Shown piece by piece: positions 14,526-56,931 of a stretch of DNA of 64,000 nucleotides; within the stretch, counting starts at the first letter, position 1, and each line of letters opens with the position of its first letter. The notes beneath the pieces are model-generated. The model saw only the letters and a program-made list of their open reading frames with translations. It did not search any database and was not told the origin of the DNA. The translations under genes and the position numbers were made by a program. The stretch is from Ensifer sp. (GTDB lineage: Bacteria; Pseudomonadota; Alphaproteobacteria; Rhizobiales; Rhizobiaceae), in assembly GCF_035999135.1 (NCBI RefSeq), contig NZ_DASYGZ010000100.1:4883-68882 (forward strand), written 5' to 3'.

Positions 14526-14563
14526 GAAAGCGGGCGCAACGCCTTGGCGAAGACGGCACCGAC

Positions 14564-15474: not shown

Positions 15475-15517
15475 AGGGTGAACTCCCTCAGGTATCTTAT
15501 TGCGGTGACGTTGCGAC

Positions 15518-15573: not shown

Positions 15574-15609
15574 AAGGCGACAATGGACACACGAAGGCGA
15601 TAGTTGAAA

Positions 15610-15804: not shown

Positions 15805-15812
15805 ATACCGGA

Positions 15813-16367: not shown

Positions 16368-16382
16368 ACGAACATTTCGCTG

Positions 16383-16417
16383 GGACACCGTTGCAAAAGC
16401 AGCGGTGTCCTGCTTTC
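16383..16417 (+). terminator. Terminator after ecfG
   Basis: GGACACCGTTGC-AAAA-GCAGCGGTGTCC then TGCTTTC. Confidence 0.65.
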
Positions 16418-16568
16418 ACTGGCGGGTGAGCCCGAAGCGAACGACCGTGATGGTAACGGCTGACGGATGCGCAGCCGATGATTTTGGGTCTGGACGTCCC
16501 AAGCCAAGCGGGATGTGGCGAGTGTCCGCAGACTTGCTCATCCCGGTCAGATTGGGGACTGAGACCAA

Positions 16569-44135: not shown

Positions 44136-44873
44136 TCAGGCGCTTGCGCGCCAGACCGAGGTGGAATTGGTGATGACCTTCTCGATGCGGCGCTGCTCGC
44201 GCCACTCCCGCCCCATATCCTTGATCACGGGACTTGCCTCGGGTGAGAAGATGTAGTTTCGGCGGTTGGCGACATAGGCTTCCATTGCCGGGTTGACGCC
44301 CGAGTAGAACTGCTTCTCCGGATCGCGTGAAAGGTCCATCAGCCCGGCGCAATGCCGCGCAAAGTCTCCCCTGAGGAGGGACGGTGAGGTGGTGAACTTC
44401 GGGAAGGTGCGAAACAGCGGGATCTTGATCCCGAACAGATGGGTGTATTCGTTGCGCCGGTGGAAGTGGCCCTTGCGACGGATGTTCCAGTTCTGGTCCG
44501 CCGTGTGGAACGACACCTGCGCGATCCTGTCGTCGGAAAATGGCGCAAGCAGCTCGCGGCCCATGTTCTTCAGCGACGTCCAGTCATCCTCGAGATGGAA
44601 TATGTAGTCGGCGCTCGATGCGGACCACAGTCTTGCGACTGCTGCGCAGAAGCCGGGGCTTTCCGGCTGGAAAATCGTGCCATCGGGGAAATGTTTGCGG
44701 AAGATTTCCACGCAGGCGCGATGGTCGTCCTCCGTCCCGAACACGGGGTCGAGATTGAGATAGGCGCCGCGCAGGTCGAGTTTATGGAAAATCTTCTCCG
44801 CGAAGCTCTCGAGCGTCTGGGCAAACAGATCCGGGCGCCGCGTCGCGACAATGCATAGGTCAATAGTGGACAT
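44136..44873 (-). CDS. GT-A fold (GT2-like) glycosyltransferase, atypical
   Basis: LCIVATRRPD start, FHLEDDW acidic motif; strong AAGGAGG SD. Confidence 0.7.
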   Translation of the reverse strand: MSTIDLCIVATRRPDLFAQTLESFAEKIFHKLDLRGAYLNLDPVFGTEDDHRACVEIFRKHFPDGTIFQPESPGFCAAVARLWSASSADYIFHLEDDWTSLKNMGRELLAPFSDDRIAQVSFHTADQNWNIRRKGHFHRRNEYTHLFGIKIPLFRTFPKFTTSPSLLRGDFARHCAGLMDLSRDPEKQFYSGVNPAMEAYVANRRNYIFSPEASPVIKDMGREWREQRRIEKVITNSTSVWRASA

Positions 44874-45044
44874 AGCACCTCCTTAAGGTGTGCTTTTTTC
44901 AACCGTCAAGACCCACGCGTGCTTCAATCTCCCTTCAATCGTGCCGAATTTACGGCAAAGTGGCCGAAGATGACAAAAATGGTCGATTTTTGATGCCCAA
45001 CCGAGAAAACCGGGCTGGGCGTCCACAGTTTATGACATTGAAAA

Positions 45045-46277
45045 TCAGAAGACTTTGAGCTCGGGAATGGCGACGACGAAGCGGCCGCCCCAGTCGCGGA
45101 TCGCGGAATTATCGGCGACGATCTCGGCCTTGAGGTTCCACGGCAGGATGACCAGATAGTCCGGCCTTGCATCTTCGATGAGGGTCGGCGCGTGCACCGG
45201 AATATGGGTGCCGGGAAGAAGCTTGCCTTGCTTGAGGTCGTTCCGGTCGACTGCAAAGGCGATCTCGCTCGGCGACAGGCCACAGACGTTGAGGAAGGTG
45301 TTGCCCTTTGCGGCGGCGCCATAGGCTGCGACCGTCTTTCCTTCGGCCTTTGCGTTGGCCAGGAAGTCCTGGAAGCTTTTGCAGACCGCGGCGATGCGGT
45401 CGTCGAAGGCCTGGTAGGTCTCCATCCGCATCAGCCCCGCGAGCGCTTCGGTTGCTCGGATCCTGTCGAGTTCAAGCGTGGTCGCGCGGGTGCCGGATCT
45501 GAGCTGGGCGAAGACGCGCAGCGAACCGCCATGCGTGGGCAGTTCCTCGACGTCGAAGACCTTGAGCCCGGAGCTTTCGAAGATGCGTTCGACGGCGGCC
45601 AGCGACAGATAGGAATAGTGCTCGTGGTAGATCGTGTCGAACTGCACTTCTTCCATCAGGCGCAGGAGATGCGGGAACTCGAACGTCGCCACGCCATCGG
45701 GCTTCAGGAGAATGGCAAAACCTTCCACGAAATCGGCGATGTCGGGCACGTGGGCAAGCACGTTGTTGGCGGCCGTCAGATCGGCGCGGATGCCGCGCTC
45801 GACGAGGTCCGTGGCGGTCTTGCGGCCGAAGAAGGCAACTTCCGTCGGGACCTTGCGCTCTTCGGCAAGGCGCGCCGCATTGGCGGCGGGCTCGACACCC
45901 AGCACCGGAATGCCTTTCTCGACGAAGTACTGCAGCAGGTAACCGTCATTCGAGGCGACCTCCACGACTTGCGCGTTTTCATCGAGCCCAAAGCGTTCCG
46001 ACATCGTCTCGGCGTAGCGGCGGGCGTGCGCAAGCCAGCTCGACGAGAAAGAGGACAGGTAGGCGTATCCGTCGGTGAAGATCTCGTCGGCCGGCACGGT
46101 CTCTGTCGTCTGCACCAGCAGGCACTCCGAGCAGACCATCGCCTTCAATGGAAACGAACGTTCGCGGGCGATGGCTTCCTGCGTCGGCTCAAGGAACGAG
46201 TTTGACCACGGGGTCGAGCCCAGGTCGGCAACGACGGTCGAAAGCGGGGTCGAGCAGAAACGGCAATTGTGGGACAT
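45045..46277 (-). CDS. NDP-sugar C-methyltransferase-like protein
   Basis: CRFC...CSEC Zn knuckle, EVASNDG, ANNVLAHVPD, YHEH, YGAAAKG C-terminal domain. Confidence 0.88.
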   Translation of the reverse strand: MSHNCRFCSTPLSTVVADLGSTPWSNSFLEPTQEAIARERSFPLKAMVCSECLLVQTTETVPADEIFTDGYAYLSSFSSSWLAHARRYAETMSERFGLDENAQVVEVASNDGYLLQYFVEKGIPVLGVEPAANAARLAEERKVPTEVAFFGRKTATDLVERGIRADLTAANNVLAHVPDIADFVEGFAILLKPDGVATFEFPHLLRLMEEVQFDTIYHEHYSYLSLAAVERIFESSGLKVFDVEELPTHGGSLRVFAQLRSGTRATTLELDRIRATEALAGLMRMETYQAFDDRIAAVCKSFQDFLANAKAEGKTVAAYGAAAKGNTFLNVCGLSPSEIAFAVDRNDLKQGKLLPGTHIPVHAPTLIEDARPDYLVILPWNLKAEIVADNSAIRDWGGRFVVAIPELKVF

Positions 46278-46285
46278 CGAAGTCG

Positions 46286-47353
46286 TTAGCCTCTCATGAA
46301 TGCATCGATTTGGCTGAGTGTCAGGTCACGGGCGTCGCCACCCCGGCGCCAGCCGTCGTACCAGCGGGCGGTCCAGTCGATCGCCTCGTGCTGCGAGAGG
46401 CGTGCGGCCCAGGAGAGGGTGCGTCCCGCGAGCGCCGGGTCGAGGCCCAGCGTCTTCATCTCGCGCGGTTGATCCTCGGACGAGGTGTCGCGCCATTCGG
46501 CGGGCAGTCCCATCGCCGTCTGGATCGCGGCGGCCACGTCGCGCACCGGGATCTGGGGCTCACTCGGGGAGGGGCCGAAGTTCAAGGCGCCGACATCGGT
46601 TTCGCCGGCGTGAAGCGCTTCGGCAAAAACGAGATAGCCGTTGAGGCAGTCAAGCACGTGCTGCCACGGCCGGGTCGCCATCGGGCTGCGGATATCGAGG
46701 GTCGAGCCCGATTGCGCGGCACGGACGATATCGGGCACCAGTCGGTCGACCGAGAAATCGCCGCCGCCGAGCACGTTGCCGCCGCGAGCGGTCGCCAGCC
46801 GGACGCCGCGTTCGCGCAGGAAGGAATCCCGCCAGGTCGACACCACCAGTTCGCAAGCGGCCTTCGAGCCGGAATAGGGGTCGTGGCCGCCGAGCACCGC
46901 GTCCTCAGGAAAATGCCGACCGCTTTCGTCATTGCGATAGACCTTGTCGGTGGTCACGACGACGACGGTCTTCAGCGCCGCGCACGCACGGGCAGCGTCC
47001 AGCAGGCGCACGGTTCCCATGACGTTGACGTCGAAGGTGTCGGCCGGCCTGCGATAGCTTTCGCGCACCAGCGGCTGGGCCGCCATGTGGAGAAAGATCT
47101 CCGGCTCACAGTCACGGATCGCCGCGGCCAGAGCGTCCCCGTCCCTGATGTCGCCAAGGTGGTCGCCGGCGTTGTGCCCGGGTCCGAGCAGGCCATGGAG
47201 GGACGGCTCGGCCGCGGGCGGCAGCGCATATCCCGTCACGCTCGCGCCCATCTGGCGCAGCCAGAGCTGTGCCCAGCTGCCCTTGAAACCGGTGTGGCCG
47301 GTCAAGAAAACCCGCTTGCCGGCCCAGAAGGACGGGGTCGCACGTCGGGTCAT
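46286..47353 (-). CDS. rfbG: CDP-glucose 4,6-dehydratase
   Basis: TGHTGFKGSW, HMAAQPLVR, TTDKVY, YSGSK, RPWQHVLD. Confidence 0.93.
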   Translation of the reverse strand: MTRRATPSFWAGKRVFLTGHTGFKGSWAQLWLRQMGASVTGYALPPAAEPSLHGLLGPGHNAGDHLGDIRDGDALAAAIRDCEPEIFLHMAAQPLVRESYRRPADTFDVNVMGTVRLLDAARACAALKTVVVVTTDKVYRNDESGRHFPEDAVLGGHDPYSGSKAACELVVSTWRDSFLRERGVRLATARGGNVLGGGDFSVDRLVPDIVRAAQSGSTLDIRSPMATRPWQHVLDCLNGYLVFAEALHAGETDVGALNFGPSPSEPQIPVRDVAAAIQTAMGLPAEWRDTSSEDQPREMKTLGLDPALAGRTLSWAARLSQHEAIDWTARWYDGWRRGGDARDLTLSQIDAFMRG

Positions 47354-48117
47354 GCCCAGACTTTCCAGGGGGCGGTACCACTTTGCCAGAGGTCTTCAAG
47401 CTGGTTCTTGTCGCGCAGCGTGTCCATCGGCCGCCAGAAACCGCCATGCTCGAAGGCCATCAACTGGCCTTCCGCCGCCAATCCCTCCAAGGGCTCCGCC
47501 TCGAACGGTGTGTGGTCACCCTCGATCCGATCGAGCACCGATCGGTTGAGAACGAAGAAGCCGCCGTTGATGTGGCCGTTGTCGCCGGCCGGCTTCTCGA
47601 TGAAGCTGCGCACCCGCCCGTCGCTGACGGCAAGCGCACCGTAGCGGCCCGGCGGGATGACGCTGGTAACGGTCGCCTGGCGGCCATGGTGGCGGTGGAA
47701 GTCGGTCAGCGCCTTGATATCGATGTCGGCGACGCCGTCGCCGTAGGTCAGGCAGAACGTATCGCCGAGATGGTCGGCGACACGCTTCAGGCGCCCACCG
47801 GTCATGCTGTCGGTTCCGGTGTCGACCAGCGTCACGCGCCACGGCTCGGCCTTGTTCGAGTGAAACAGGGTTTCGCCCGTCGCCATGCAATAGGTGACGT
47901 CGGAAGAGTGCAGCACGTAGTTGGCAAAGTATTCCTTGATCATGTAGCCCCGGTAGCCGAGGCAGATCACGAAATCCGAAAAGCCATAGTGGCTGTAGAT
48001 CTTCATGATGTGCCACAGGATCGGCCGCCCGCCGATTTCGATCATCGGCTTTGGCCGGAGATGGCTCTCCTCCGAGATGCGCGTGCCGTAACCACCCGCG
48101 AGAATGACGATTTTCAT
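47350..48117 (-). CDS. rfbF: Glucose-1-phosphate cytidylyltransferase
   Basis: ILAGGYGTRISEE, RPKPM, TYGDG, FWRPMDTLRD. Confidence 0.95.
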   Translation of the reverse strand: MKIVILAGGYGTRISEESHLRPKPMIEIGGRPILWHIMKIYSHYGFSDFVICLGYRGYMIKEYFANYVLHSSDVTYCMATGETLFHSNKAEPWRVTLVDTGTDSMTGGRLKRVADHLGDTFCLTYGDGVADIDIKALTDFHRHHGRQATVTSVIPPGRYGALAVSDGRVRSFIEKPAGDNGHINGGFFVLNRSVLDRIEGDHTPFEAEPLEGLAAEGQLMAFEHGGFWRPMDTLRDKNQLEDLWQSGTAPWKVWA

Positions 48118-48214
48118 GCGACCGCCCCGTATTTGCGCCGACCCATACCCGGCGCATTTCAAAGTCCTAATATCCTGGTGACCTTGCGCGGAGGTGGTCT
48201 CCGTGCTGGGGCCT

Positions 48215-49324
48215 TCAGGCGGCGAGGCAGCCACGCAGGACGTCGACAACGCGGCCGATCTCCTCGGCCGTCATGTCGTGATAGCTCGGCAGATTGATCG
48301 CCCGGCCGGGAAGGTCGTAGGCCGTGGTGTTGGCCGGCACGCCTTCAAATGGCGGCAGCGAACTCAACGGCCAGAAGAACACGCGCGCGTCAATGTTTTC
48401 GGCAGCAAATGCGTCCTGGAGTTTTTCCCGGGTTACGCCGGTTTCCGGCGCGAAGACGACGGTGGGCATCCAGAAGCCGTTCTGCGTTCCTTCCGGCTCC
48501 GGGTTCATCGCAACCGCGTTCACGCCGGCAAGGAGGTCCCGGTAGGCGTAGAAGATGGCGCGCTTGCGTTCGACCAGTTCGCCGACCCGCTCGATCTGGG
48601 CGAGACCAACGGCCGCCTGCAGGTTCGACATCTTGTACTTGAAGCCGATTTCGTCCGGCCAGAACTGCTTTTTCTGCCCGCGGGCGCGGCCGTGATTGGA
48701 GAGCGTCAGCACCTTTTCGTGGAGCTTGGCGTCACTGGTCACGAACATGCCGCCTTCGCCTGTCGTCACCGTCTTGGTGCCATGGAAGGAGAAGGCGCCG
48801 AAAGCGCCGAGCGAGCCTGCCTTGCGTCCACGCCATTCCGATCCGAGCGCTTCGGCCGCATCCTCGACAACCGGAATGCCGTGTCGCGCGCCGATGTCCA
48901 GCAGCCGGTCCATGTCGCAAAGGTTGCCGTAGATATGGACGGCGATGATCGCCTTGGTTCGTGGCGTGATTGCCGCTTCGGCCCTTTCCGGATCGATGCA
49001 CCAGCTGTCTGAAAGCACGTCGACGAAGACAGGCTTTGCCCCGAGATGAACGATCGGGGCGGCAGACGCCGTCCAGTTGGTGTCGGCAAGGATCACTTCG
49101 TCGCCGGGGCCGACGCCGAGTGCGGCAAGGCCCATATGCAGTGCGCCAGTGCAGCTCGACGTCGAGATCGCGTGCGCGGCGCCGAGATGGGTCGCAAACG
49201 CGGCTTCGAACCGATTGATGTAGTCGTAGCAGCGCTCGCCCCAGCCGTTGGCCGCCGCGTCCGTTGCATAGGCCACCTCGCGGTCGGTGATCGAGGGCTT
49301 GGTGTAGAGAATGCGCGGTTTCAT
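48215..49324 (-). CDS. DegT/DnrJ/StrS PLP sugar aminotransferase (perosamine-synthase-like)
   Basis: SSCTGALH, VEDAAEA, SFHGTKTVTTGEGG, GFKYKM. Confidence 0.92.
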   Translation of the reverse strand: MKPRILYTKPSITDREVAYATDAAANGWGERCYDYINRFEAAFATHLGAAHAISTSSCTGALHMGLAALGVGPGDEVILADTNWTASAAPIVHLGAKPVFVDVLSDSWCIDPERAEAAITPRTKAIIAVHIYGNLCDMDRLLDIGARHGIPVVEDAAEALGSEWRGRKAGSLGAFGAFSFHGTKTVTTGEGGMFVTSDAKLHEKVLTLSNHGRARGQKKQFWPDEIGFKYKMSNLQAAVGLAQIERVGELVERKRAIFYAYRDLLAGVNAVAMNPEPEGTQNGFWMPTVVFAPETGVTREKLQDAFAAENIDARVFFWPLSSLPPFEGVPANTTAYDLPGRAINLPSYHDMTAEEIGRVVDVLRGCLAA

Positions 49325-49361
49325 GCGGTAGCCAATCGATTGAGGCGAGGATGGTGCTTCG

Positions 49362-50513
49362 TCAAAGCCAGACGTGGTCGAGCCCAGTTCGCTGCAGCCA
49401 GGGCTGGGCGGCGATCGCGTCGCGGGCCTTCAGCGGATTGAGGCCGATGAACAGCGCTTCGGCTCCCTCGGGCAGGTCCTCCGGGGGGAGGACCGGAATG
49501 CCGAAATGGGTGGTGCCGCGCAGGTTTTCGTTGCGATCGAGGAAGGCCACGACATCGACGTCCTGACCGATCCGGCAGTAGATCCAGCTTCCGTAGAATC
49601 CGGCGCCATAGATCGCGACTTTGCGCCGGGCGTAGCGTTCAACTCCGCCCTCAAGCGCTTCGGATGCGCGCTCCCAGAAGGCGCAGATCTCGCGTGCCTC
49701 GGTCGCGGCTTCGTCGGCCGATTTTGAGGTGCGGGCGGTTTCAACGGCCGTATCGGCGCGCCTTGCCACAACGAAGAAGGCGCCGGGGAACGAGGTCTTG
49801 TCGATCGTCGTCAATTCGAACCCGGCGCTTGCAAGGGCATGCGCAAGCGAGGCTTCGCTGAAGTGATTGAGGTGATCGGCGACCGCCATGTCACCCGGAT
49901 TTCCAGCGACGTCCGGCATCGAAAACAGGACGCTGCCGCCAGCGCGAAGCAGTGCGTGCACGTCGCGCAGAAAGCCGACCGGATCGGCCACGTGCTCGAT
50001 GACGAAATGGCTCATCACCGCATCGAACGTTCCCTTCCAGGCCTCCGGCACCGCGTAGGTCGCTTGCGCCGCTTCCGGCACCCAGCCCTGCCAGGCGGGG
50101 GCATAGTCCGAACTCACCTCGAAGACGGAAGGGCGCAGGTCGCCCCGGGCAAGAACCATCTTGCGCAAGGTGTCCGCCTTGGCCGCGCCGAAGTCGAGGA
50201 TCGAGGCACCTTCCGGCAGATCCAGCAGTCGCAGCGACAGGGCGGCCTGATGGTCGGTCCGGTAGATGATCGTGCCGTCAGCTGCGACCGCGAAGATCTG
50301 GTCGTGGTTGTCGCTGCTCAGCGATATCCGGTACTCCGTGTCATAGAAGGCCTGAATATCCGGAATTTCGTCGCTTTGCGAATGTCCGCAGTCGCCGCAC
50401 ACGAACACGCGGGTCGGCACGTCGAGCAGTGTCGTGCCCGAGGTCAGGGCCGGCGCCGGCGCTTCGTAGGACGGGGCGCCGATGTGGCTGCCACAAACTC
50501 GGCATGCGGTCAT
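49362..50513 (-). CDS. Class I SAM methyltransferase with Zn knuckle
   Basis: CRVCG...CGDCG, LDFGAAKA, IEHVADP, AIYGAG. Confidence 0.8.
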   Translation of the reverse strand: MTACRVCGSHIGAPSYEAPAPALTSGTTLLDVPTRVFVCGDCGHSQSDEIPDIQAFYDTEYRISLSSDNHDQIFAVAADGTIIYRTDHQAALSLRLLDLPEGASILDFGAAKADTLRKMVLARGDLRPSVFEVSSDYAPAWQGWVPEAAQATYAVPEAWKGTFDAVMSHFVIEHVADPVGFLRDVHALLRAGGSVLFSMPDVAGNPGDMAVADHLNHFSEASLAHALASAGFELTTIDKTSFPGAFFVVARRADTAVETARTSKSADEAATEAREICAFWERASEALEGGVERYARRKVAIYGAGFYGSWIYCRIGQDVDVVAFLDRNENLRGTTHFGIPVLPPEDLPEGAEALFIGLNPLKARDAIAAQPWLQRTGLDHVWL

Positions 50514-51367
50514 GCAAGTTCTCCCTCAGGAGCGACCAGTTCCGGCAGCACTTCGGCGAAGTTGACGCCGGCGGCGAACGAACCCTTCCAGCCGATGCGG
50601 ATACCGACCGGATCGGCGTAGTTGAAGTAGCGGAACTGGATGCTCCAGCGCGGCGTCTGCGACACGTTGTGGCCGGACTGGTGCAGCGTCAGGAAGTCCA
50701 TCAGGATCAGGTCGCCGGGATTGCTGAGCGGGGCGACATGCTTGTAGCGCGCCAGGCGTTCCTCGCCCTTGTGCAGATACAGCGAATAGGCGCCGGTCTT
50801 GCCAAGGTCCGCTCCGTCCTCATAGACCGGAACGAAGCCCTCGGCGTGGGAGCCCTCGGCAATCTGGACAGGACCCATGTCGGCCAAGACAGGCAGCAGC
50901 GGCGTCCAGAAGACGACGCCATCGGCGCTGCGCAGCTGCGCCGGAAACTCCTGGTGCCATTGCGAACGGAACTTTTCTTCACCCGGATTGTCGATGCGGA
51001 TGCCGTAGCCGCCGGCGGCGATGCCGGGCGCACTGCCCGGGCGAAGCGCCTTGAAGACCTCGTCGTTGGCGGCGGCACTGACAAGCCGCATGAAGGCCGG
51101 GATCTGCTTGACCGCATCATAGACCTCGCCACCCCAGGAGCGGTTGACGGCGATCAGCTTGCGATAGGCAATGGTCATGGCTTCATGCGCGGTTCCGGTC
51201 GGCGCTTCGACGCCGTACTTCTTGCAGAGCAATTCGAGGATCTGGCGGATGCCTTCCTGGATTGGTGCGATCTGTGCCTGAACGTCGTAGAAGCCGGGGA
51301 CCACATGGTAGCCCTTGGTTTCGAATTCCTGGCGCGCGCTCTCGGAAATGATGGTGCCGTTGTTCAT
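50510..51367 (-). CDS. PhyH-family Fe(II)/2-oxoglutarate dioxygenase
   Basis: WHQE, VFWTPL, LHQSGHN, RWS. Confidence 0.85.
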   Translation of the reverse strand: MNNGTIISESARQEFETKGYHVVPGFYDVQAQIAPIQEGIRQILELLCKKYGVEAPTGTAHEAMTIAYRKLIAVNRSWGGEVYDAVKQIPAFMRLVSAAANDEVFKALRPGSAPGIAAGGYGIRIDNPGEEKFRSQWHQEFPAQLRSADGVVFWTPLLPVLADMGPVQIAEGSHAEGFVPVYEDGADLGKTGAYSLYLHKGEERLARYKHVAPLSNPGDLILMDFLTLHQSGHNVSQTPRWSIQFRYFNYADPVGIRIGWKGSFAAGVNFAEVLPELVAPEGELA

Positions 51368-51505
51368 GATACGCCTGTTTCCTCCTTCAGGAATTCCTGC
51401 CGTGAGACGGTCGTCGGTAACAAAATGCCGGCGCGCATCAGGCTCGGTGCGCGCGGTCAGGTCCAGGATGAAAATCTAATGGGCGAAGCTTTCCCCAGGC
51501 TGTGG

Positions 51506-52216
51506 CTATCCCTTGGGAATGGCGGCGTCGGCGACAACGATCCTGTCGATCCGGCCGCCGATCTGCGCGCCGGCATAGAGGTTCTCATAGTAGCGGGCAG
51601 GGAAACCCGCCTCACGCATGTGGAACGCCGTCCGATCGATGTCGTATTCGACGCGATGCAGTTCGATGTCGCCCGCCGGCGACATGAGCGCGAAGGCTGC
51701 GCGCGGATCACCGTCGCGTGGCTGCCCGACCGAGCCGGGATTGCAGAACGTCTTGCCACCGATGTCGAGACGCACCTGCACATGGGTATGGCCGGCAAAA
51801 AGCCGCGCGGCGCCTTCAGGGAAATGCACTTCCGAGACCTGGTAGAGATACTCGTCGACTGGATCCTGCCAGCTCCCATGGACAAAAAAGGTCGATCCGT
51901 CGACCAGGCGGGATCGCGACCCGGCAAGCCAGGCGTGCTGTTCCGCCGAGATGATGCCCCGCTGATATTCGATGATGTCGTTGACCATCTTCGAGCGCGG
52001 GCAGCCTTCGCCGCTCACAATATAATGGTCGTGATTGCCCATGATGTTGACGATGCCGCGGGCCTTCAGGCGGTCGATGCAGTCGCCCGGTTGGGCGTAG
52101 TAACCGACGACGTCGCCGAGCGACAGGATCGTGCTGCAGCCGAGTGCATCGATGCGGGCAAGCACGGCCTCAAGCGCGGGGAGATTGCCGTGGATGTCGG
52201 AAATGACCGCGATCAT
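51506..52216 (-). CDS. Calcineurin-like metallophosphoesterase
   Basis: SDIHGN, GDVVGY, GNHD, HG, GHTH, NPGSVGQPRD. Confidence 0.9.
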   Translation of the reverse strand: MIAVISDIHGNLPALEAVLARIDALGCSTILSLGDVVGYYAQPGDCIDRLKARGIVNIMGNHDHYIVSGEGCPRSKMVNDIIEYQRGIISAEQHAWLAGSRSRLVDGSTFFVHGSWQDPVDEYLYQVSEVHFPEGAARLFAGHTHVQVRLDIGGKTFCNPGSVGQPRDGDPRAAFALMSPAGDIELHRVEYDIDRTAFHMREAGFPARYYENLYAGAQIGGRIDRIVVADAAIPKG

Positions 52217-53211
52217 TGGACGACCAGATCCTCGGCGTAGCGCCAGGCCCGTCCGGGTCTGATGTCGGGTTCTTCCGGCCTTTTGCCGTAGAGGTAGTAG
52301 TCGAGCGCCATTTCCGCCTCGTTGTAGCCGAAGGCTGCGCGCAGCGACGTGCTGCTCGAGAAACGCGGGTTGATCTCCAGCAGATAGGCTGTCGTACCGT
52401 CCAACCGGAACTGATAGTTCGTCGGTCCGAGCGGCTTGAAGTGTCGCGCGAGGCGTTGCACGGCCTCGACCACGACAGGTGCGTCGACCACCTCTGCGTA
52501 CTGGGTATTGCCGGCAACCGACAGCTTGCGCTTGAAGACGATGGGCGAAAGCGTGGTGCCATCGCCGAAGCCGAAGGCTCCAACGGTGTATTCCTGGTCG
52601 TTGCTGCCGACATATTTCTGGATGACGAAGTCATCGTCGCTCTTCTTCGTCCAGTAGTCGAAGTCGGCGACATCGCGCAAAAGCGCAATACCGCGCGAAC
52701 CGTTGCCGCGGCGCGGTTTGAGCAACAGGGGCAGGGGACCGAGTTCGCGCGTGCAGGCGTCAAGCGAGCGGCTGAGCGTGCTCGGGATGGCGGGAAAGCC
52801 TGCGTCGAGAAGTGCCTCGCCCATGTCCCATTTGTCCTGCCCGACGTCGATCAGCGACGGCGTGTTCAGGGCAATGCGCGCCTCGGTCTGTGCAAATTTC
52901 GCTCGGTTCTCGTGGAAGAAGGTCACGTCCAGCTCGAGGCCGGGCAGCACCAGCGCGACATTCTCTCGCTCTATCAGCGCGAGCCAGAAGTCGAGGTAGT
53001 CTCGCGAACTCTCGTCGCAGGCAGGCTTTGTGACAAAGTGGTCGCAGAAGTAGCGGCCGATGCCATTGGCGTCACGGTCGACGCCGATGATCCTGACCGG
53101 CGTTTTTGACTTGCGCAGCGACGCCACGATGCCCTGGCCAATGATTGCGCCAACCGCCGTCACCACGACCGTCACCTGCTGCGTCGATTGCTTCGTGTCG
53201 TCTTCAGTCAT
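52213..53211 (-). CDS. ATP-grasp protein (PylC/carbamoyl-phosphate-synthase-like)
   Basis: QDKW, KPRRGNGSRG, QKYVGSNDQEYTV, LEINPRFS. Confidence 0.88.
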   Translation of the reverse strand: MTEDDTKQSTQQVTVVVTAVGAIIGQGIVASLRKSKTPVRIIGVDRDANGIGRYFCDHFVTKPACDESSRDYLDFWLALIERENVALVLPGLELDVTFFHENRAKFAQTEARIALNTPSLIDVGQDKWDMGEALLDAGFPAIPSTLSRSLDACTRELGPLPLLLKPRRGNGSRGIALLRDVADFDYWTKKSDDDFVIQKYVGSNDQEYTVGAFGFGDGTTLSPIVFKRKLSVAGNTQYAEVVDAPVVVEAVQRLARHFKPLGPTNYQFRLDGTTAYLLEINPRFSSSTSLRAAFGYNEAEMALDYYLYGKRPEEPDIRPGRAWRYAEDLVVQ

Positions 53212-54083
53212 TTGACGTCCATCGGGCCGAATGCATCGGCCGTCCCCATTGTCTTGATCATGGCAATCCCGTCCCTCATCGTGATGAGAGGCTGCATGCC
53301 CAGATGCGCGAGCGTGGTTGCTCCGTCCGGGAAATTGACCTTTCGAAACGGCGCCTTTTCCGTCGCGATCACCACCTGGCCGCCGCGCCCGAATGTCTCG
53401 TAGGCGAGGGCAGCGATAGCATCCGAGGTCATGGCCTCGGTATGCACGGCGTCCAGCACGCCCAAGGCACCGGTTTCGGCGGCCCGTATCATCAAGTCTG
53501 CCGCGTCCTGGACGTGCAGGAAGTTGCGCACGCCGTGTGAGGTCGGCATGCGCAGGTCCATGCCGCGCGAGGCATAGGCGATGATGCGGCCGAACCAGGG
53601 TTGATGGGCGCAGCAGCGCCCTTCAACGTCATAGAGCTGCGAGAAGCGGAGGCTGCAAAAGCCAAAGCCGTGTTTCTGCGCGCTCCACTCGAGGATTTTT
53701 TCTGCCAGCTGCTTGGACATTCCATAGGAGGTCAGCGGTGCTTCATCGAGTGTCGCGTCCGAGGATAGCGATCCGGCATGGATGAGGGTCCTCGCCCGCA
53801 GCCGCTGAGCGAGCTCGGCCACGTGAAGTGCGCCCATGGTGTTGGCCGCGAAATTCTGCCGGATGCCCGAAGGGCCATCGTCACCGAAGCTGGCGGCAAC
53901 ATGGAAGAGTGCGTCCACGGTCAGGCCATCGGGCACGATCGGCGCGCCCTCCACGAGGTCGAAGACGATGTCATCGGTCTGCGCCCTGCCGACGCTGACC
54001 GTCTCGACGCCGAGGCGCCGAAGACGCTCGACGAGCGCGTGTCCCAGCATCGAGCGCGGGCCGATGACGGCGGCTTTCTTCAT
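53208..54083 (-). CDS. Extended SDR NAD(P)-dependent epimerase/reductase
   Basis: Degenerate GPRSMLG, YGMSK, RNFLHVQD. Confidence 0.8.
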   Translation of the reverse strand: MKKAAVIGPRSMLGHALVERLRRLGVETVSVGRAQTDDIVFDLVEGAPIVPDGLTVDALFHVAASFGDDGPSGIRQNFAANTMGALHVAELAQRLRARTLIHAGSLSSDATLDEAPLTSYGMSKQLAEKILEWSAQKHGFGFCSLRFSQLYDVEGRCCAHQPWFGRIIAYASRGMDLRMPTSHGVRNFLHVQDAADLMIRAAETGALGVLDAVHTEAMTSDAIAALAYETFGRGGQVVIATEKAPFRKVNFPDGATTLAHLGMQPLITMRDGIAMIKTMGTADAFGPMDVK

Positions 54084-54096
54084 GCGGACCAGGCTT

Positions 54097-54870
54097 TCAC
54101 GCGGTGAACTCCCTCCAGTCGACCGTTCCGGAATGCACGAGCTTTGCGCCTTCGGCGCCGCAATTGGCGACGAGGTCCAAAGCGGTCACGTAAGGGGTGA
54201 ACGCGCCGTGCAGCTGCGGATAGGGCGTGCGCTCATAGTTCATGTAGCGGACCGCTATTCCGTTCTGCCCGAAGAGATCGTGATCGAGATAGTTCCGCGC
54301 GCCATGGCCGGTGATGTAAACCGTGCCTTCGAGATGCGCAGTGATGTCGTAGACCCGCTCGCTGCTCGCGCCGCCGATCACCAGGCGGTCCGACGAGACG
54401 AAGATCGGCCGGTTCAGGCCGAAATAGGCGGCGAGCGCCAGCATGGAATTGCGGGCGACATCGGCGACCGTCGCGGTGTCCCTGGCGAACACGTCGTCGA
54501 CCAGGGCGAGCATGTCCTTGACGTACGGCGCCTTGCCGTAGGCCTGGCGCAGGATATCGCGATGACGGCTTTTCCAGTCGGCCCGATCGTCGATCAGCAC
54601 TTCGTCGATCCGTTGCCCCAGGTGGAAGTCCTTCAGCGGAAGGGTCAGCCAGCGGATGCCGTTGTCAGTCTTGATCTGCACGCGGTTTGTAAAGCTGCCG
54701 CGGGAAAACTGAACATCGTCGTAGTGGACGAACACATCCGCGAGCTTGATCTGCTCCAGCATGCCAACCCATGGAAAGTACATGGATTGCGAGATGACAA
54801 TGTTGCGAGCCATCGGGTCGTCGCCTGGGGTCGGTGTTGTCACGTGTCGCGTGCTGGAAATGGGTGCCAA
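54097..54870 (-). CDS. WbqC-like protein
   Basis: QSMYFPWVG, YDDVQF, NRVQIKT, WLTLP; start 54870 (TTG) or 54813. Confidence 0.88.
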   Translation of the reverse strand: MAPISSTRHVTTPTPGDDPMARNIVISQSMYFPWVGMLEQIKLADVFVHYDDVQFSRGSFTNRVQIKTDNGIRWLTLPLKDFHLGQRIDEVLIDDRADWKSRHRDILRQAYGKAPYVKDMLALVDDVFARDTATVADVARNSMLALAAYFGLNRPIFVSSDRLVIGGASSERVYDITAHLEGTVYITGHGARNYLDHDLFGQNGIAVRYMNYERTPYPQLHGAFTPYVTALDLVANCGAEGAKLVHSGTVDWREFTA

Positions 54871-54888
54871 AGGTCCTTGCGCCCGGGC

Positions 54889-55641
54889 CTACTTCCGCAC
54901 GCAGCGCAGGTAGCCGCGCGGCGAGCTGGAGAGGACGAGCTTGCCGTTCAGCGCCTCGTCAATCTCGAAGCGCGTCTCCTCTTCCATGTAAGCCTTGAGC
55001 GCTGCATAGGGCTCGTCGCCGGCATGCCAGATCTTGGAGCGCTTAGTCGGCGTCTGCGTGTCGTCGCCGAAGCCGAGCAGCGTATCGGCGACAACCATGT
55101 ATTGCCCCTCGGTCACCAGCGGGCCGTAGGTGCGCAATTCGTCGAGCACGTGGTCGCGGCTGTGGTCGCTGTCGAGCACCACCATGACCGAGGCGCCCTC
55201 GGGGATCTCGGCCTTGACCTTGGCGAGCGTTTCCGCCGTCGTCGAAGGACCTTCGATCAGCGTGATGCGCGACGACATCGGGTGTTTTTCGATCGAATCG
55301 CGGTTGTGGGCGCGGATGTCGATGTCGACGCCGATGACCTTGCCCTTGCCGATGAGCTGCAGCATCGCCGCCATGAAGATCACCGAGCCGCCGCGGGCAA
55401 CGCCCGTCTCGATGATGATGTCAGGCTTGGTGTTCCAGATGACTTCCTGGGTCGCCATGACGTCAGCGGGCATCTGGATGATCGGCACGCCCATGAAGGA
55501 CCAGAGGTAGGAGTAGTCGTACTTGTCGAGCGTGACCAGGGTGTCGAGCGACTGCTGGAAGGCGTCCCTGTCCTTGCCAAGCGCAAGGGCCATCTCCGTC
55601 TTGTGGGCTTCGAATGCGAGACGATCGTCAACTACTGTCAT
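54889..55641 (-). CDS. CmcI (cephalosporin hydroxylase)/rhamnosyl O-methyltransferase family protein
   Basis: QMPADV, KPDIIIETGVARGGS, LDSDH, YMVVADT. Confidence 0.88.
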   Translation of the reverse strand: MTVVDDRLAFEAHKTEMALALGKDRDAFQQSLDTLVTLDKYDYSYLWSFMGVPIIQMPADVMATQEVIWNTKPDIIIETGVARGGSVIFMAAMLQLIGKGKVIGVDIDIRAHNRDSIEKHPMSSRITLIEGPSTTAETLAKVKAEIPEGASVMVVLDSDHSRDHVLDELRTYGPLVTEGQYMVVADTLLGFGDDTQTPTKRSKIWHAGDEPYAALKAYMEEETRFEIDEALNGKLVLSSSPRGYLRCVRK

Positions 55642-55830
55642 TGCTGCCTGACACCCTTTAGTGAATGCAATCTACGGATGCGCCTCTGGTCGCGAATCGC
55701 GATCAATGGCGTTTCAGCGATTCGTAACGTTTTCCTGTGAACGCTTTCATGTCGGCAATTGCAAATACGGTCAAGGCCGGTTTCTTAAGGGCGAAAAGAC
55801 GGGTAGATCTGGGCCCTGGCGGAAGGTTGC

Positions 55831-56376
55831 ATGTCGCGATTCGAACTGATTTCTACACCTATAGCGGGTCTCACGGTTGTCGAACGTCAACGCAGGGGCG
55901 ACGACCGCGGATTTTTCTCGCGCTTCTTCTGCCGCGATGCGCTGGCCGACTTTGGGACAGGTGGCACGATCGCCCAGATCAACCATACGCTGACGCAAGC
56001 CGCAGGCACGATCCGCGGCCTGCATTTCCAGCGCCCGCCGCACGACGAGGCGAAGTTCGTCTCGTGCCTTTCGGGCGCCGTCTTCGACGTGGCTGTCGAC
56101 TTGAGGCCCGGGTCCCCGACCTATCTGCACTGGCACGGCGAGGTCTTGAGCGCTCACAACGGCCGCTCGATGATGATCCCCGGCGGTTTCGCGCACGGGT
56201 TCCAGACGCTTGAAGACGATTGCGAACTGATCTACCTGCACGACAAGCCCTATGCGCCCGATGCCGAAGGCGGGCTCAACCCGCTCGATCCGGGGCTCGC
56301 CATTGCCTGGCCGCTGCCGATCGCGCAGATGTCCGAGCGCGACCAGGCCCTGCCGGTTCTGACCGCCGCGGGCTGA
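55831..56376 (+). CDS. rfbC: NDP-4-keto-6-deoxyhexose 3,5-epimerase (RmlC/RfbC family)
   Basis: DDRGFFSR, RGLHFQ, VDLRPGSPTY, AHGFQTL. Confidence 0.92.
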   Translation: MSRFELISTPIAGLTVVERQRRGDDRGFFSRFFCRDALADFGTGGTIAQINHTLTQAAGTIRGLHFQRPPHDEAKFVSCLSGAVFDVAVDLRPGSPTYLHWHGEVLSAHNGRSMMIPGGFAHGFQTLEDDCELIYLHDKPYAPDAEGGLNPLDPGLAIAWPLPIAQMSERDQALPVLTAAG

Positions 56377-56460
56377 CGGTCTTCCCCTGCGTCGTTGACT
56401 TCACGGAGGATGGGAGGAGAATGAGATCTCCGCGCCACCACGACAGAAGGGGTGTCGACG

Positions 56461-56931
56461 ATGACGATCGCTAGAAAACTTCAGGACTACATCGACGGTG
56501 CGGGGGTCGCCTACGACACCGTTGACCATCACCGCACGGCCACCACCAGCCAGACGGCGCGGGCGGCGCATGTGCCCGGCAGCCGGCTTGCCAAGTCCGT
56601 CGTCGTCCACCACGAGATGGGCTACGTGCTCGCGGTGGTGCCCAGCACCCATCGGGTCGAGCTTTCCACCCTGCAGGACGTGATGGACCGCCGCCTGGGT
56701 CTCGCCTCCGAGGAAGAAGTCTCAACGCTCTTTGCCGACTGCGATATCGGCGCGGTGCCGCCCGTCGGAACCGCCTATGACGTGCCGGTGCTGCTCGACG
56801 AAAGCCTCGGCGAGGTGAACGACGTCTATTTCGAAGGCGGCGACCACCGGACGCTGGTGCATATGAGCGGCGCGAATTTCCGCAACCTGATGAAGGATGC
56901 GCGGGTCGCTCGCTTCAGCCACCCGGCGTGA
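56461..56931 (+). CDS. YbaK/ProX aminoacyl-tRNA deacylase-family protein
   Basis: LAKSVV Lys, GAVPPVG, FEGGDH. Confidence 0.85.
   Translation: MTIARKLQDYIDGAGVAYDTVDHHRTATTSQTARAAHVPGSRLAKSVVVHHEMGYVLAVVPSTHRVELSTLQDVMDRRLGLASEEEVSTLFADCDIGAVPPVGTAYDVPVLLDESLGEVNDVYFEGGDHRTLVHMSGANFRNLMKDARVARFSHPA

What the first reader, a model, noticed from the sequence alone, without database searches (positions are those of the whole stretch)
48215..54870. Module B: aminotransferase, WbqC, ATP-grasp, phosphoesterase and Fe/2OG dioxygenase as an ACP-independent N-acylation route
Seen: coupled SDR/ATP-grasp/phosphoesterase and dioxygenase/methyltransferase genes; the dioxygenase has an H-Q-E...H triad (hydroxylase-type, not halogenase-type). 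Known: WbqC is associated with N-glycyl amino sugars (E. coli O121); PylC-like ATP-grasp enzymes form amides. Inference: an amino sugar is acylated with an amino or hydroxy acid that is further hydroxylated or methylated, possibly through a phosphorylated intermediate removed by the phosphoesterase. This could reveal how WbqC works.
Basis: partly seen in the sequence, partly recalled or inferred. Interest (0 to 1): 0.66.

Follow-up and report, generated by a model that had tools for sequence, protein, structure and literature searches.

The report
Swappable amino-sugar N-acyl tailoring genes
These seven genes are real and sit inside a widely shared but unstudied bacterial pathway that decorates a rare methyl-branched amino sugar; they form three independent units, not one route, which gives a testable role for the unexplained WbqC enzyme family.

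Summary
All seven genes are present and intact at 48215-54870 on the minus strand, inside a 13-gene CDP-sugar island (44136-56376) of an Ensifer genome. SDR/ATP-grasp/phosphoesterase and dioxygenase/methyltransferase each overlap by ATGA.

Comparison with 80 WbqC loci from many phyla splits "Module B" into three units.
- **Core:** DegT and WbqC almost always travel with RfbF, RfbG, an RmlC-like epimerase, a C-methyltransferase and a CmcI-type methyltransferase.
- **Swappable cassette:** ATP-grasp plus phosphoesterase, usually with a 241-aa methyltransferase and the SDR. It never co-occurs with its two alternatives, a GNAT acetyltransferase or a PurN-like formyltransferase.
- **Independent pair:** the dioxygenase and the 383-aa methyltransferase occur with any of the three alternatives.

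In E. coli O121, WbqC is the only unassigned gene left for the glycyl amide of Qui4N(GlyAc). My best reading, inferred and not shown, is that WbqC makes the first amide and a PurT/PurK/carbamoyl-phosphate-synthase-like ATP-grasp caps the new amine.

WbqC folds confidently but matches no solved structure. This strain has cleanly lost the 241-aa methyltransferase.

The chemistry is unknown, and earlier notes of this scan describe the same cassette in other genomes.

The parts
54889..55641 (-). CmcI / rhamnosyl O-methyltransferase-family methyltransferase (250 aa). It is the first gene of the operon and part of the conserved core; probable sugar 2-O-methyltransferase.
   Evidence: PF04989, E 1.7e-70. 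Present in 77 of about 85 WbqC loci.
54097..54813 (-). WbqC-family protein (238 aa; an alternative TTG start lies at 54870). Part of the conserved core. Proposed to form the first amide on the sugar 4-amine.
   Evidence: PF08889, E 1.4e-65. AlphaFold model with pLDDT 97.8 and no PDB fold match. In E. coli O121 it is the only unassigned gene left for the glycyl step. GNAT-WbqC fusion P0202.
54079..54099 (-). Seven-codon relic (GTG AAA GCC TGG TCC GCA TGA) of the 241-aa methyltransferase that elsewhere always accompanies the ATP-grasp. It results from an in-frame internal deletion of about 710 bp.
   Evidence: Collinear blastn against Ensifer sp. SL37 locus L102: L102 6419-7128 has no counterpart in the window. 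No copy elsewhere in the genome.
53208..54083 (-). Extended SDR (291 aa, with a YxxxK motif). An optional member of the ATP-grasp cassette.
   Evidence: PF01370. Found in 21 of 27 ATP-grasp loci and 0 of 53 others. Only 26% identity, E 0.09, to the S. meliloti cluster's SDR. Nearest PDB sequence is 3m2p, deposited as UDP-N-acetylglucosamine 4-epimerase.
52213..53211 (-). ATP-grasp ligase (332 aa) resembling carbamoyl-phosphate synthase, PurK and PurT. Proposed to cap an amine through an acyl- or carboxy-phosphate intermediate.
   Evidence: NF009402, 248 bits against a cut-off of 218. K165, E279 and N281 invariant. Profile hits to 2pn1 and to the second (C-terminal, residues about 654-847) ATP-grasp domain of the E. 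coli CPS large subunit. Foldseek neighbours are 2pn1, PurK, biotin carboxylase and PurT at TM about 0.7.
51506..52216 (-). Metallophosphoesterase (236 aa, YfcE-like), coupled by ATGA to the ATP-grasp. Role unresolved.
   Evidence: PF12850, E 9e-20. All metal-binding motifs invariant. Co-occurs with the ATP-grasp in 27 of 27 loci.
50510..51367 (-). PhyH-family Fe(II)/2-oxoglutarate dioxygenase (285 aa). An independent accessory pair with MT383.
   Evidence: PF05721. H138/E140/H229/R240 conserved. Co-occurs with MT383 in 51 of 51 loci and is independent of cap type.
49362..50513 (-). 383-aa methyltransferase with an N-terminal CxxC...CxxC zinc ribbon and a C-terminal Rossmann-like domain. This is the architecture of nucleotide-sugar C-methyltransferases.
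   Evidence: Methyltransf_23, plus a weak Methyltransf_13 hit. Collinear with the cluster's own C-methyltransferase, residues 164-372 against 166-380, E 3e-4.
48215..49324 (-). DegT/DnrJ/EryC1 PLP aminotransferase (369 aa). Part of the conserved core; makes the 4-amino sugar.
   Evidence: PF01041, E 6e-122. 66-72% identical to copies in Gammaproteobacteria.
47350..48117 (-). Glucose-1-phosphate cytidylyltransferase RfbF (255 aa).
   Evidence: TIGR02623, 440 bits against a cut-off of 300.
46286..47353 (-). CDP-glucose 4,6-dehydratase RfbG (355 aa).
   Evidence: TIGR02622, 454 bits against a cut-off of 278.
45045..46277 (-). TylC3/TcaB9-type nucleotide-hexose C-methyltransferase (410 aa).
   Evidence: Methyltransf_13, Methyltransf_23 and Methyltransf_14 domains.
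44136..44873 (-). 245-aa protein with no family above threshold. A weak GT-A / GT2 resemblance (HLEDDW motif) makes it a candidate transferase for the finished sugar.
   Evidence: Glycos_transf_2, E 0.0034, below the cut-off. Conserved at the end of the Ensifer clusters.
55831..56376 (+). RmlC-type 3,5-epimerase (181 aa), divergently transcribed. Part of the conserved core.
   Evidence: PF00908, E 2.7e-58. TIGR01221, 155.9 bits against a cut-off of 155.75.

Best explanation
**What the island makes.** It most likely builds a CDP-activated 4-amino-4,6-dideoxy-3-C-methyl-2-O-methyl hexose of the kansosamine type, with a composite N-acyl group on the 4-amine. The genes responsible are RfbF, RfbG, the RmlC-like epimerase, the C-methyltransferase, DegT and the CmcI-type methyltransferase.

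1. DegT and WbqC are part of the conserved core.
2. SDR, ATP-grasp and phosphoesterase form a swappable cassette. Elsewhere it always carries a 241-aa methyltransferase, which has been deleted here. The cassette is the functional alternative to a GNAT acetyltransferase or a PurN-like formyltransferase.
3. The PhyH dioxygenase and MT383 are an independent add-on. They more likely act on the nucleotide sugar than on the part of the acyl group added by the ATP-grasp.

**Proposed order of steps.**
- DegT makes the 4-amine.
- WbqC forms the first amide with a small amino acid, as the glycyl group of E. coli O121 suggests.
- The ATP-grasp activates a small acid as an acyl- or carboxy-phosphate, in the manner of PurT, PurK or carbamoyl-phosphate synthase, and caps the new free amine.
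- The phosphoesterase and the SDR process this cap. The phosphoesterase may remove a phosphate from a phosphorylated donor or intermediate.
- orf245 or a distant transferase then uses the finished sugar.

**Shown:** gene identities, coupling, modularity, mutual exclusivity of the three alternatives, and the lack of any solved structure resembling WbqC.

**Inferred:** the sugar's structure, what WbqC does, the ATP-grasp's donor and acceptor, and the roles of the phosphoesterase, SDR, dioxygenase and MT383.
For: **Modularity**
- In 80 loci anchored on WbqC, the core genes are nearly universal.
- ATP-grasp co-occurs with the phosphoesterase in 27 of 27 loci, with the 241-aa methyltransferase in 26 of 27, and with the SDR in 21 of 27.
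- ATP-grasp never co-occurs with the GNAT (31 loci) or the formyltransferase (12 loci). PhyH co-occurs with MT383 in 51 of 51 loci, with any cap type.
- The usual gene order is DegT-[PhyH-MT383]-[GNAT or formyltransferase]-WbqC-[MT241-SDR-ATP-grasp-phosphoesterase]-CmcI.
- Pararhizobium strains at one chromosomal site carry either the GNAT or the ATP-grasp cassette with nearly identical WbqC, for example L020 against L014.
- Starting from the ATP-grasp instead, all four contexts examined (L006, L097, L098, L102) contain WbqC.

**WbqC as the first amide former**
- The E. coli O121 cluster reads rfbB, rfbA, DegT, WbqC, GNAT. Three glycosyltransferases cover the three linkages, AsnB covers the uronamide, and an O-acetyltransferase is also present.
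- That leaves WbqC as the only gene available for the glycyl amide of Qui4N(N-acetylglycyl) (structure from PMC7685785).
- A GNAT-WbqC fusion protein occurs inside the same cluster type.
- The formyltransferase in these loci resembles PurN, which formylates a glycinamide amine (E 8e-17 in PDB; TIGR00639, 2e-18). It resembles sugar N-formyltransferases much less (E 1e-4 to 1e-6).

**ATP-grasp chemistry**
- The nearest characterised relatives all activate one-carbon acids and most deliver them to an amine: carbamoyl-phosphate synthase, PurK, biotin carboxylase and PurT.
- The catalytic residues of the ATP-grasp, the phosphoesterase and the dioxygenase are intact.
Against: - No biochemical data exist for any of these proteins. 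WbqC's role in O121 rests on elimination, and the two WbqC proteins share only 26% identity.
- WbqC shows no recognisable ATP-binding or other catalytic signature and no structural relative.
- The GNAT also resembles PseH, which acetylates a sugar 4-amine directly. The three alternatives could therefore act on the sugar itself.
- The scheme assigns no necessary role to the phosphoesterase, even though its link to the ATP-grasp is absolute.
- The SDR looks like a nucleotide-sugar enzyme, not an acyl-chain enzyme.
- The locus counts are not phylogenetically independent.
- This strain lacks the otherwise universal 241-aa methyltransferase, so its product may be atypical or the cassette may be impaired.
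Confidence: 0.45

Rival explanations
1. The ATP-grasp acts directly on the sugar. The ATP-grasp cassette, the GNAT and the formyltransferase are three alternative enzymes that each acylate the 4-amine of the CDP-sugar. WbqC has a different, still unknown core job linked to 4-amino sugars, for example an isomerisation, a protecting or hand-over step, or substrate channelling.
For: - The three alternatives are mutually exclusive.
- The GNAT resembles PseH, a sugar 4-amine N-acetyltransferase (TIGR03585, E 3e-11).
- WbqC is present whichever alternative is used, and the same WbqC serves both the GNAT and the ATP-grasp.
- WbqC has no ligase-like fold.
Against: - In E. coli O121 this would leave no gene for attaching glycine.
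- It does not explain the GNAT-WbqC fusion as well.
- The formyltransferase is PurN-like and not like sugar formyltransferases.
Confidence: 0.3
2. The cassette is not a capping unit. ATP-grasp, phosphoesterase, SDR and the 241-aa methyltransferase either make the acid that WbqC then attaches, for example from a phosphorylated central metabolite, or modify another position on the sugar.
For: - The ATP-grasp and the phosphoesterase are strictly coupled, which suggests a phosphorylated intermediate.
- The SDR is of the nucleotide-sugar or acyl-reductase type.
- The cassette always lies directly next to WbqC.
Against: - If it only supplied a donor, there would be no reason for it to exclude the GNAT and the formyltransferase, yet it does so in 27 of 27 loci.
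- The nearest relatives of the ATP-grasp deliver activated one-carbon acids to an acceptor nitrogen.
Confidence: 0.17
3. The cassette is decaying in this strain. Loss of the 241-aa methyltransferase left the cassette non-functional, and the cluster makes only the core sugar or nothing.
For: - The methyltransferase is present in 26 of 27 ATP-grasp loci and is missing only here.
- There is no copy elsewhere in the genome.
Against: - The deletion is in frame and keeps the ATGA coupling to the SDR.
- All other genes are intact with conserved catalytic residues.
- GC3 is normal for coding sequence.
Confidence: 0.08

Closest known systems
E. coli O121 / Shigella dysenteriae type 7 O-antigen genes for 4-(N-acetylglycyl)amino-4,6-dideoxy-D-glucose (rfbB-rfbA-vioA-wbqC-GNAT)
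   Same: A DegT-family aminotransferase is followed by WbqC and an enzyme that caps an amine. The product is a 4-amino-4,6-dideoxyhexose with a two-part N-acyl group.
   Different: - O121 uses dTDP, not CDP.
- O121 has no C-methyl or O-methyl genes.
- Its cap is a 140-aa GNAT, not the ATP-grasp cassette.
- The two WbqC proteins are only 26% identical.
- WbqC's function is unproven there too.
Early purine biosynthesis: PurD, then PurN or PurT, and PurK
   Same: - The chemical logic matches: an amine on a sugar receives glycine, and the glycine amine is then formylated.
- That formylation is done either by a folate-dependent enzyme (PurN) or by an ATP-grasp (PurT). PurK carboxylates an amine.
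- Here a PurN-like formyltransferase and a PurT/PurK-like ATP-grasp are mutually exclusive alternatives.
   Different: - This is analogy only. Sequence identity to PurK and PurT is 14-16%.
- The acceptor is a nucleotide sugar.
- The PurD-like step would be done by WbqC, which has an unrelated fold.
- The phosphoesterase, SDR and methyltransferase have no counterpart in purine synthesis.
N-acylkansosamine of Mycobacterium kansasii lipooligosaccharide, and CDP-vinelose of Azotobacter (from my own knowledge; kansosamine is mentioned in PMC4403928)
   Same: The predicted core sugar, 4-amino-4,6-dideoxy-3-C-methyl-2-O-methyl-hexose, matches the gene set of epimerase, C-methyltransferase, aminotransferase and O-methyltransferase. 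CDP activation matches vinelose.
   Different: - No genes have been assigned for kansosamine or vinelose, so this is a predicted product and not a homology.
- The acyl group of kansosamine, 2-methoxypropionyl, is not an amino acid.
Sinorhizobium meliloti pSymB cluster: rfbC, acyltransferase, SDR, CmcI-type methyltransferase, C-methyltransferase, rfbG, rfbF
   Same: RfbF, RfbG, the C-methyltransferase and RfbC are 74-82% identical at protein level, and the rfbF-rfbG-C-methyltransferase trio is about 77% identical at DNA level.
   Different: - S. meliloti has no DegT, WbqC, ATP-grasp, phosphoesterase, dioxygenase or MT383.
- It has an unrelated SDR and an acyltransferase.
- It therefore presumably makes the non-amino, 4-hydroxy sugar.
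ACP-dependent N-acylation of 4-amino-6-deoxy sugars: Vibrio cholerae O1 perosamine tetronate, and the modified viosamine on Pseudomonas syringae flagellin (from my own knowledge)
   Same: The outcome is the same kind of product, an elaborated N-acyl 4-amino-4,6-dideoxyhexose on a surface glycan. In Achromobacter the same cassette lies in a flagellin glycosylation island.
   Different: Those systems build the acyl chain on an acyl carrier protein with fatty-acid-type enzymes. No such genes are present here.
Aminoacyl-tRNA-dependent transferases (the FemX type), and the tRNA-ProX operons that contain a WbqC gene (PMC10404621)
   Same: A published operon map places WbqC next to a dedicated prolyl-tRNA synthetase, its tRNA, a GT4 glycosyltransferase and an LmbE deacetylase. 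That set would suit aminoacylation of an amino sugar from a charged tRNA.
   Different: - There is no tRNA or synthetase gene in this island.
- The neighbouring YbaK-like editing-domain gene belongs to the flank and not to the island.
- WbqC's fold is unrelated to Fem/GNAT transferases.

Membership tests
WbqC-like protein family (PF08889) | Match to the family profile above Pfam's gathering score. | tested here: met
   221.6 bits against a cut-off of 21.3, covering profile positions 1-216 of 218.
WbqC-like protein family (PF08889) | A known biochemical activity. | not testable with these tools
   The family is uncharacterised (PMC5532660). No member has a solved structure and the model has no fold neighbour.
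ATP-grasp superfamily | ATP-grasp fold with the conserved ATP-binding lysine and the Mg-binding E/N pair. | tested here: met
   - NF009402 scores 248 bits against a cut-off of 218.
- K165, E279 and N281 are invariant in 14 homologues.
- Foldseek TM is 0.70-0.78 to 2pn1, PurK and PurT.
PylC (3-methylornithine--lysine ligase) | Match to the PylC equivalog model above its cut-off. | tested here: not met
   TIGR03909 scores 14.7 bits against a cut-off of 248. Only the PylC-like_N domain and a general fold resemblance are found.
Calcineurin-like metallophosphoesterases | The motifs DxH, GD, GNH(D/E), H and GHxH. | tested here: met
   D7, H9, D35, N61, H62, H113, H143 and H145 are invariant. PF12850 scores 71.7 bits against a cut-off of 27.
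YfcE phosphodiesterase subfamily (TIGR00040) | Score above the curated cut-off. | tested here: not met
   44.6 bits against a cut-off of 56.25.
PhyH-type Fe(II)/2-oxoglutarate hydroxylases | The HxD/E...H facial triad and the arginine that binds 2-oxoglutarate. | tested here: met
   H138, E140 (E or D in homologues), H229 and R240 are conserved in 20 sequences. PF05721 scores 44.8 bits against a cut-off of 22.
TylC3/TcaB9-type nucleotide-sugar C-methyltransferases (tested for MT383) | Zinc-ribbon domain (Methyltransf_13), methyltransferase core and C-terminal domain (Methyltransf_14). | tested here: inconclusive
   - Methyltransf_13 scores 17.1 bits, below its cut-off of 31.3, and Methyltransf_14 is not detected.
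- The protein is nevertheless collinear with the cluster's own C-methyltransferase over the core end and the C-terminal domain, E 3e-4.
E. coli O121-type Qui4N(GlyAc) pathway | dTDP-glucose route (RfbA/RfbB) plus VioA, WbqC and a GNAT. | tested here: not met
   The DegT-WbqC pair is present. Activation is by CDP (RfbF/RfbG), and the GNAT is replaced by the ATP-grasp cassette.
The conserved 'C-methyl amino sugar plus WbqC' cassette defined here from 80 loci | RfbF, RfbG, RmlC-like epimerase, C-methyltransferase, DegT, WbqC and CmcI-type methyltransferase together, plus one of three cap options. | tested here: met
   All seven core genes and the ATP-grasp option are present. The one atypical feature is the absence of the 241-aa methyltransferase.

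The most novel reading that the evidence does not exclude
WbqC would be the founding member of a new fold class of enzymes that attach an amino acid to the amine of a nucleotide-linked amino sugar. It might draw on aminoacyl-tRNA instead of ATP, as its published co-location with a dedicated prolyl-tRNA synthetase and tRNA hints. The three alternative partners (GNAT, PurN-like formyltransferase, PurT/PurK-like ATP-grasp cassette) would then cap the new amine. Bacteria across many phyla would be running a purine-like 'glycinamide' logic on surface sugars to vary O-antigens and flagellin glycans. The ATP-grasp cassette would add a so far undescribed cap, for example a carbamate or a phosphate-derived acyl group.
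Probability: 0.3. Interest if true: 0.8.

Novelty: new variant of a known kind. Interest (0 to 1): 0.56.

Why it matters
- **An open question about WbqC.** N-acyl decorations on 4-amino-6-deoxy sugars define serotypes and phage and immune recognition in many bacteria. The enzymes that attach amino acids and unusual acids to these sugars are largely unknown. As far as I know WbqC has been an orphan family since it was named in the O121 cluster; it was still described as functionally uncharacterised in 2017 (PMC5532660), about 9,200 representatives at 50% identity match it, and it has no solved structure.
- **A concrete hypothesis.** The comparison gives an order of action: WbqC first, then one of three interchangeable caps.
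- **Natural experiments.** Pararhizobium strains differ only in the cap cassette. This Ensifer strain differs from Ensifer sp. SL37 by a clean loss of one methyltransferase.
- **A candidate gene set.** It also proposes genes for kansosamine-type sugars.
- **Limits.** If the reading is wrong, the modular map still tells experimenters which genes belong together. This is a recurrent cassette, already noted in other genomes of this scan, and is not unique to this window.

Tried and rejected
- **Fold or sequence relatives of WbqC.**
  - PDB sequence search, profile search and Foldseek on a model with pLDDT 97.8 found nothing significant. The best Foldseek hit has E 0.04 and TM at most 0.31, with only weak hints of cytidylyltransferase and E1 adenylation domains.
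  - An idea from earlier notes, that WbqC is like BshC/MshC or class I tRNA synthetases, is therefore neither confirmed nor excluded.
- **The YbaK/ProX-like editing-domain gene (56452-56931) as part of the island.** Rejected. It is present in Ensifer genomes that lack WbqC (G001, G004, G014, G017, G019-G021) and absent from one that has WbqC.
- **The island's SDR as the counterpart of the 4-ketoreductase in the S. meliloti cluster.** Rejected, at 26% identity and E 0.09. It tracks the ATP-grasp instead.
- **The dioxygenase/MT383 pair as tailoring the ATP-grasp's acyl group.** Rejected as a dedicated role, because the pair also occurs with the formyltransferase and with the GNAT.
- **WbqC as a glycosyltransferase.** Unlikely, because O121 already has three transferases for three linkages.
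- **WbqC-like genes in other E. coli serogroups with aminoacyl sugars.** A DNA-level search found O121-type clusters only (13 genomes, all at least 99.9% identical; one is labelled O103).
- **Literature.**
  - Searches for WbqC, for kansosamine and 3-C-methyl amino sugars, and for ATP-grasp enzymes acting on amino sugars gave no functional study.
  - My first attempt at the 3-C-methyl sugar search failed on a syntax error.
- **Promoter and terminator scan.** It gave only chance-level matches.
- **Distant WbqC representatives.** The one I looked up lay on a contig too short to show context.

Full report
**1. What is there**

The window comes from an Ensifer genome. The finding's coordinates hold seven intact minus-strand genes with GC3 of 0.78-0.81, typical of coding sequence. 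In order of transcription they are:

| Gene | Coordinates | Length | Best family match |
|---|---|---|---|
| WbqC | 54813-54097 | 238 aa | PF08889, E 1.4e-65 |
| Extended SDR | 54083-53208 | 291 aa | PF01370 |
| ATP-grasp | 53211-52213 | 332 aa | NF009402 above its cut-off; ATPgrasp_Ter; PylC-like_N |
| Metallophosphoesterase | 52216-51506 | 236 aa | Metallophos_2 |
| PhyH dioxygenase | 51367-50510 | 285 aa | PF05721 |
| Methyltransferase MT383 | 50513-49362 | 383 aa | Methyltransf_23 |
| DegT aminotransferase | 49324-48215 | 369 aa | PF01041, E 6e-122 |

- SDR/ATP-grasp, ATP-grasp/phosphoesterase and dioxygenase/MT383 each overlap by ATGA.
- The dioxygenase triad H138-x-E140...H229, with R240, is conserved in 20 homologues.
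- The phosphoesterase keeps all its metal-binding motifs.
- The ATP-grasp keeps K165, E279 and N281.

The only correction is that WbqC probably starts at 54813.

**2. The surroundings**

The seven genes lie inside a 13-gene island, 44136-56376.
- On one side are a CmcI-type methyltransferase and, divergently transcribed, an RmlC-type epimerase.
- On the other side are RfbF, RfbG, a TylC3-type C-methyltransferase and a 245-aa protein with weak GT-A resemblance.
- The flanks are a dipeptide ABC transporter, a YbaK-like gene and a YkuD gene.
- No polymerase, flippase or acyl carrier protein gene is present.

S. meliloti pSymB has only the non-amino version: rfbC, an acyltransferase, an unrelated SDR, a CmcI-type methyltransferase, the C-methyltransferase, rfbG and rfbF. 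The rfbF-rfbG-C-methyltransferase trio is about 77% identical at DNA level.

WbqC is present in 13 of 23 Ensifer species, so the island is variable.

**3. Comparison with other loci**

WbqC homologues at 55% identity or more occur across many phyla. I fetched 80 genome loci around them. I scored every cluster gene by tblastn and by all-against-all clustering of open reading frames. Three results follow.

(a) **A conserved core.** RfbF, RfbG, the RmlC-like epimerase, the C-methyltransferase, DegT, WbqC and the CmcI-type methyltransferase are nearly universal.

(b) **Three mutually exclusive options sit beside WbqC**:
- a GNAT acetyltransferase (31 loci);
- a formyltransferase (12 loci);
- ATP-grasp with the phosphoesterase (27 of 27), with a 241-aa methyltransferase (26 of 27) and with the SDR (21 of 27).

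(c) **The dioxygenase and MT383 always go together** (51 of 51). They combine with the GNAT (31 of 31 GNAT loci), the ATP-grasp (14), the formyltransferase (3) or none (3).

The usual gene order is DegT-[PhyH-MT383]-[GNAT or formyltransferase]-WbqC-[MT241-SDR-ATP-grasp-phosphoesterase]-CmcI.

- Pararhizobium strains carry either the GNAT or the ATP-grasp cassette at one and the same chromosomal site.
- On a WbqC tree, clades follow the cap type across phyla. Inside Pararhizobium, however, near-identical WbqC proteins serve either cap, as in L020 and L014.
- Starting from the ATP-grasp, all four contexts examined contain WbqC.

So "Module B" is three units: the core (DegT, WbqC), a swappable cassette (SDR, ATP-grasp, phosphoesterase), and an independent pair (dioxygenase, MT383). 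These counts include related genomes and are not phylogenetically independent. The pattern nevertheless recurs in Rhizobiaceae, Pseudomonas, Cupriavidus, Achromobacter, Methylococcales, Chloroflexota and Cyanobacteria.

**4. What WbqC may do**

An AlphaFold model is very confident (pLDDT 97.8). It has no significant match among solved structures: the best E is 0.04 and TM is at most 0.31. A sequence profile finds nothing in the PDB.

It contains:
- tviB and an epimerase;
- rfbB, rfbA, DegT, WbqC and a GNAT;
- wzx and wzy;
- a GT2 and two GT4 glycosyltransferases;
- an O-acetyltransferase and asnB.

The O121 unit contains Qui4N carrying N-acetylglycine (PMC7685785). Three glycosyltransferases cover the three linkages. 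AsnB covers the uronamide, and the GNAT covers the acetyl group. WbqC is therefore the only gene left for the glycyl amide.

Three further observations fit this reading.
- A GNAT-WbqC fusion occurs in the present cluster type.
- The formyltransferase of these loci is closest to PurN, which formylates the glycine amine of glycinamide ribonucleotide. It is far from the sugar N-formyltransferases.
- A published operon map shows WbqC next to a dedicated prolyl-tRNA synthetase, its tRNA, a GT4 glycosyltransferase and an LmbE deacetylase (PMC10404621). That raises the possibility of an aminoacyl-tRNA donor.

The neighbouring YbaK-like gene is only a flank gene.

**5. What the ATP-grasp cassette may do**

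By sequence profile, the closest solved relatives are 2pn1 (function unknown) and the second (C-terminal) ATP-grasp domain of the E. coli carbamoyl-phosphate synthase large subunit, which by my own knowledge is the carbamate-phosphorylating domain. By fold, they are 2pn1, PurK, biotin carboxylase, PurT and PylC.

These enzymes activate bicarbonate, carbamate or formate as a mixed anhydride, and most pass it to a nitrogen. PurT is the ATP-grasp alternative to PurN in purine synthesis. That is the same either/or seen here.

I therefore propose that the ATP-grasp caps an amine with a small acid. That amine is the new aminoacyl amine if WbqC acts first, or the sugar 4-amine if it does not.

The phosphoesterase is linked to the ATP-grasp without exception, and I cannot assign its role. 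The SDR resembles nucleotide-sugar epimerases and reductases and is optional.

**6. The dioxygenase and MT383**

The pair also accompanies a formyl cap, so it cannot be dedicated to the ATP-grasp's acyl group. MT383 has a zinc ribbon, a methyltransferase core and a C-terminal domain. It is collinear with the cluster's own sugar C-methyltransferase (E 3e-4), which suggests a nucleotide-sugar substrate. Action on an aminoacyl group installed by WbqC is not excluded.

**7. A feature of this strain**

Ensifer sp. SL37 has the same layout plus the 241-aa methyltransferase between WbqC and the SDR. In the window about 710 bp are missing. What remains is GTG AAA GCC TGG TCC GCA TGA: the first and last codons of that gene, still overlapping the SDR start. 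No copy exists elsewhere in the genome. This is a clean in-frame deletion and a natural variant, expected to lack one methyl group.

**8. Where the sugar goes**

- In Achromobacter the same gene set follows fliC and a large TPR/GT41 protein, the layout of a flagellin glycosylation island.
- In other genomes it lies in O-antigen loci with Wzm/Wzt or Wzx.
- In Ensifer the target is unknown.

**9. Verdict**

The modular map is well supported. The order "WbqC first, ATP-grasp cap second" is my best inference (0.45). The main rival is direct acylation of the sugar by the ATP-grasp, with WbqC doing something else (0.30).

The cassette is widespread and uncharacterised, and earlier notes of this scan describe it in at least a dozen other genomes. 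It is therefore not unique to this window.

Noticed in passing
window 54079-54099 (- strand); compare L102:6419-7128: A seven-codon relic of the 241-aa methyltransferase remains. An in-frame deletion removed the gene body but kept its start, its stop and the ATGA overlap with the SDR. This makes the strain a natural single-gene knockout compared with Ensifer sp. SL37.
   Followed up: yes
L098 (Achromobacter piechaudii) 1-12492: The same sugar gene set, including WbqC, the 241-aa methyltransferase, ATP-grasp and phosphoesterase, lies directly after fliC and a 1142-aa methyltransferase/TPR/GT41 protein. This is probably a flagellin glycosylation island. Ensifer sp. B1-9 (L007) has a 673-aa flagellin gene about 6 kb from its cluster.
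   Followed up: partly
window 44136-44873 (-): A 245-aa protein with no family above threshold and a weak GT2 hit (E 0.0034; HLEDDW motif). It is conserved as the last gene of the Ensifer clusters and, at 34% identity, in a Rhodobacterales locus (L042). It is a candidate dedicated transferase.
   Followed up: partly
window 56452-56931 (+): A free-standing YbaK/ProX-type aminoacyl-tRNA editing-domain gene lies next to the island. It is present in Ensifer genomes that lack WbqC, so it is a flank gene that marks the insertion site.
   Followed up: yes
L001 (S. meliloti pSymB) 9127-17058: The simpler non-amino version of the cluster is split by an ISNCY transposase between the CmcI-type methyltransferase and the C-methyltransferase.
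   Followed up: no
P0131 (494 aa) and P0202 (411 aa): The WbqC domain occurs as a tandem WbqC-WbqC protein and as a GNAT-WbqC fusion. The fusion sits in a CmcI / GNAT-WbqC / PhyH / MT383 cluster (L100).
   Followed up: partly
L041, L042, L043, L047, L059, L061 (ORF cluster c103): A different small class I methyltransferase of about 210-230 aa lies just upstream of the formyltransferase or WbqC in several formyltransferase-type loci. It may play the same part as the 241-aa methyltransferase of the ATP-grasp cassette.
   Followed up: no
window versus L007, L034 and L009, L010: Among Ensifer clusters most genes are 80-91% identical. WbqC (64% against 85%) and the SDR (57% against 78%) vary much more, which points to recombination or diversification centred on the WbqC-to-SDR segment.
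   Followed up: partly
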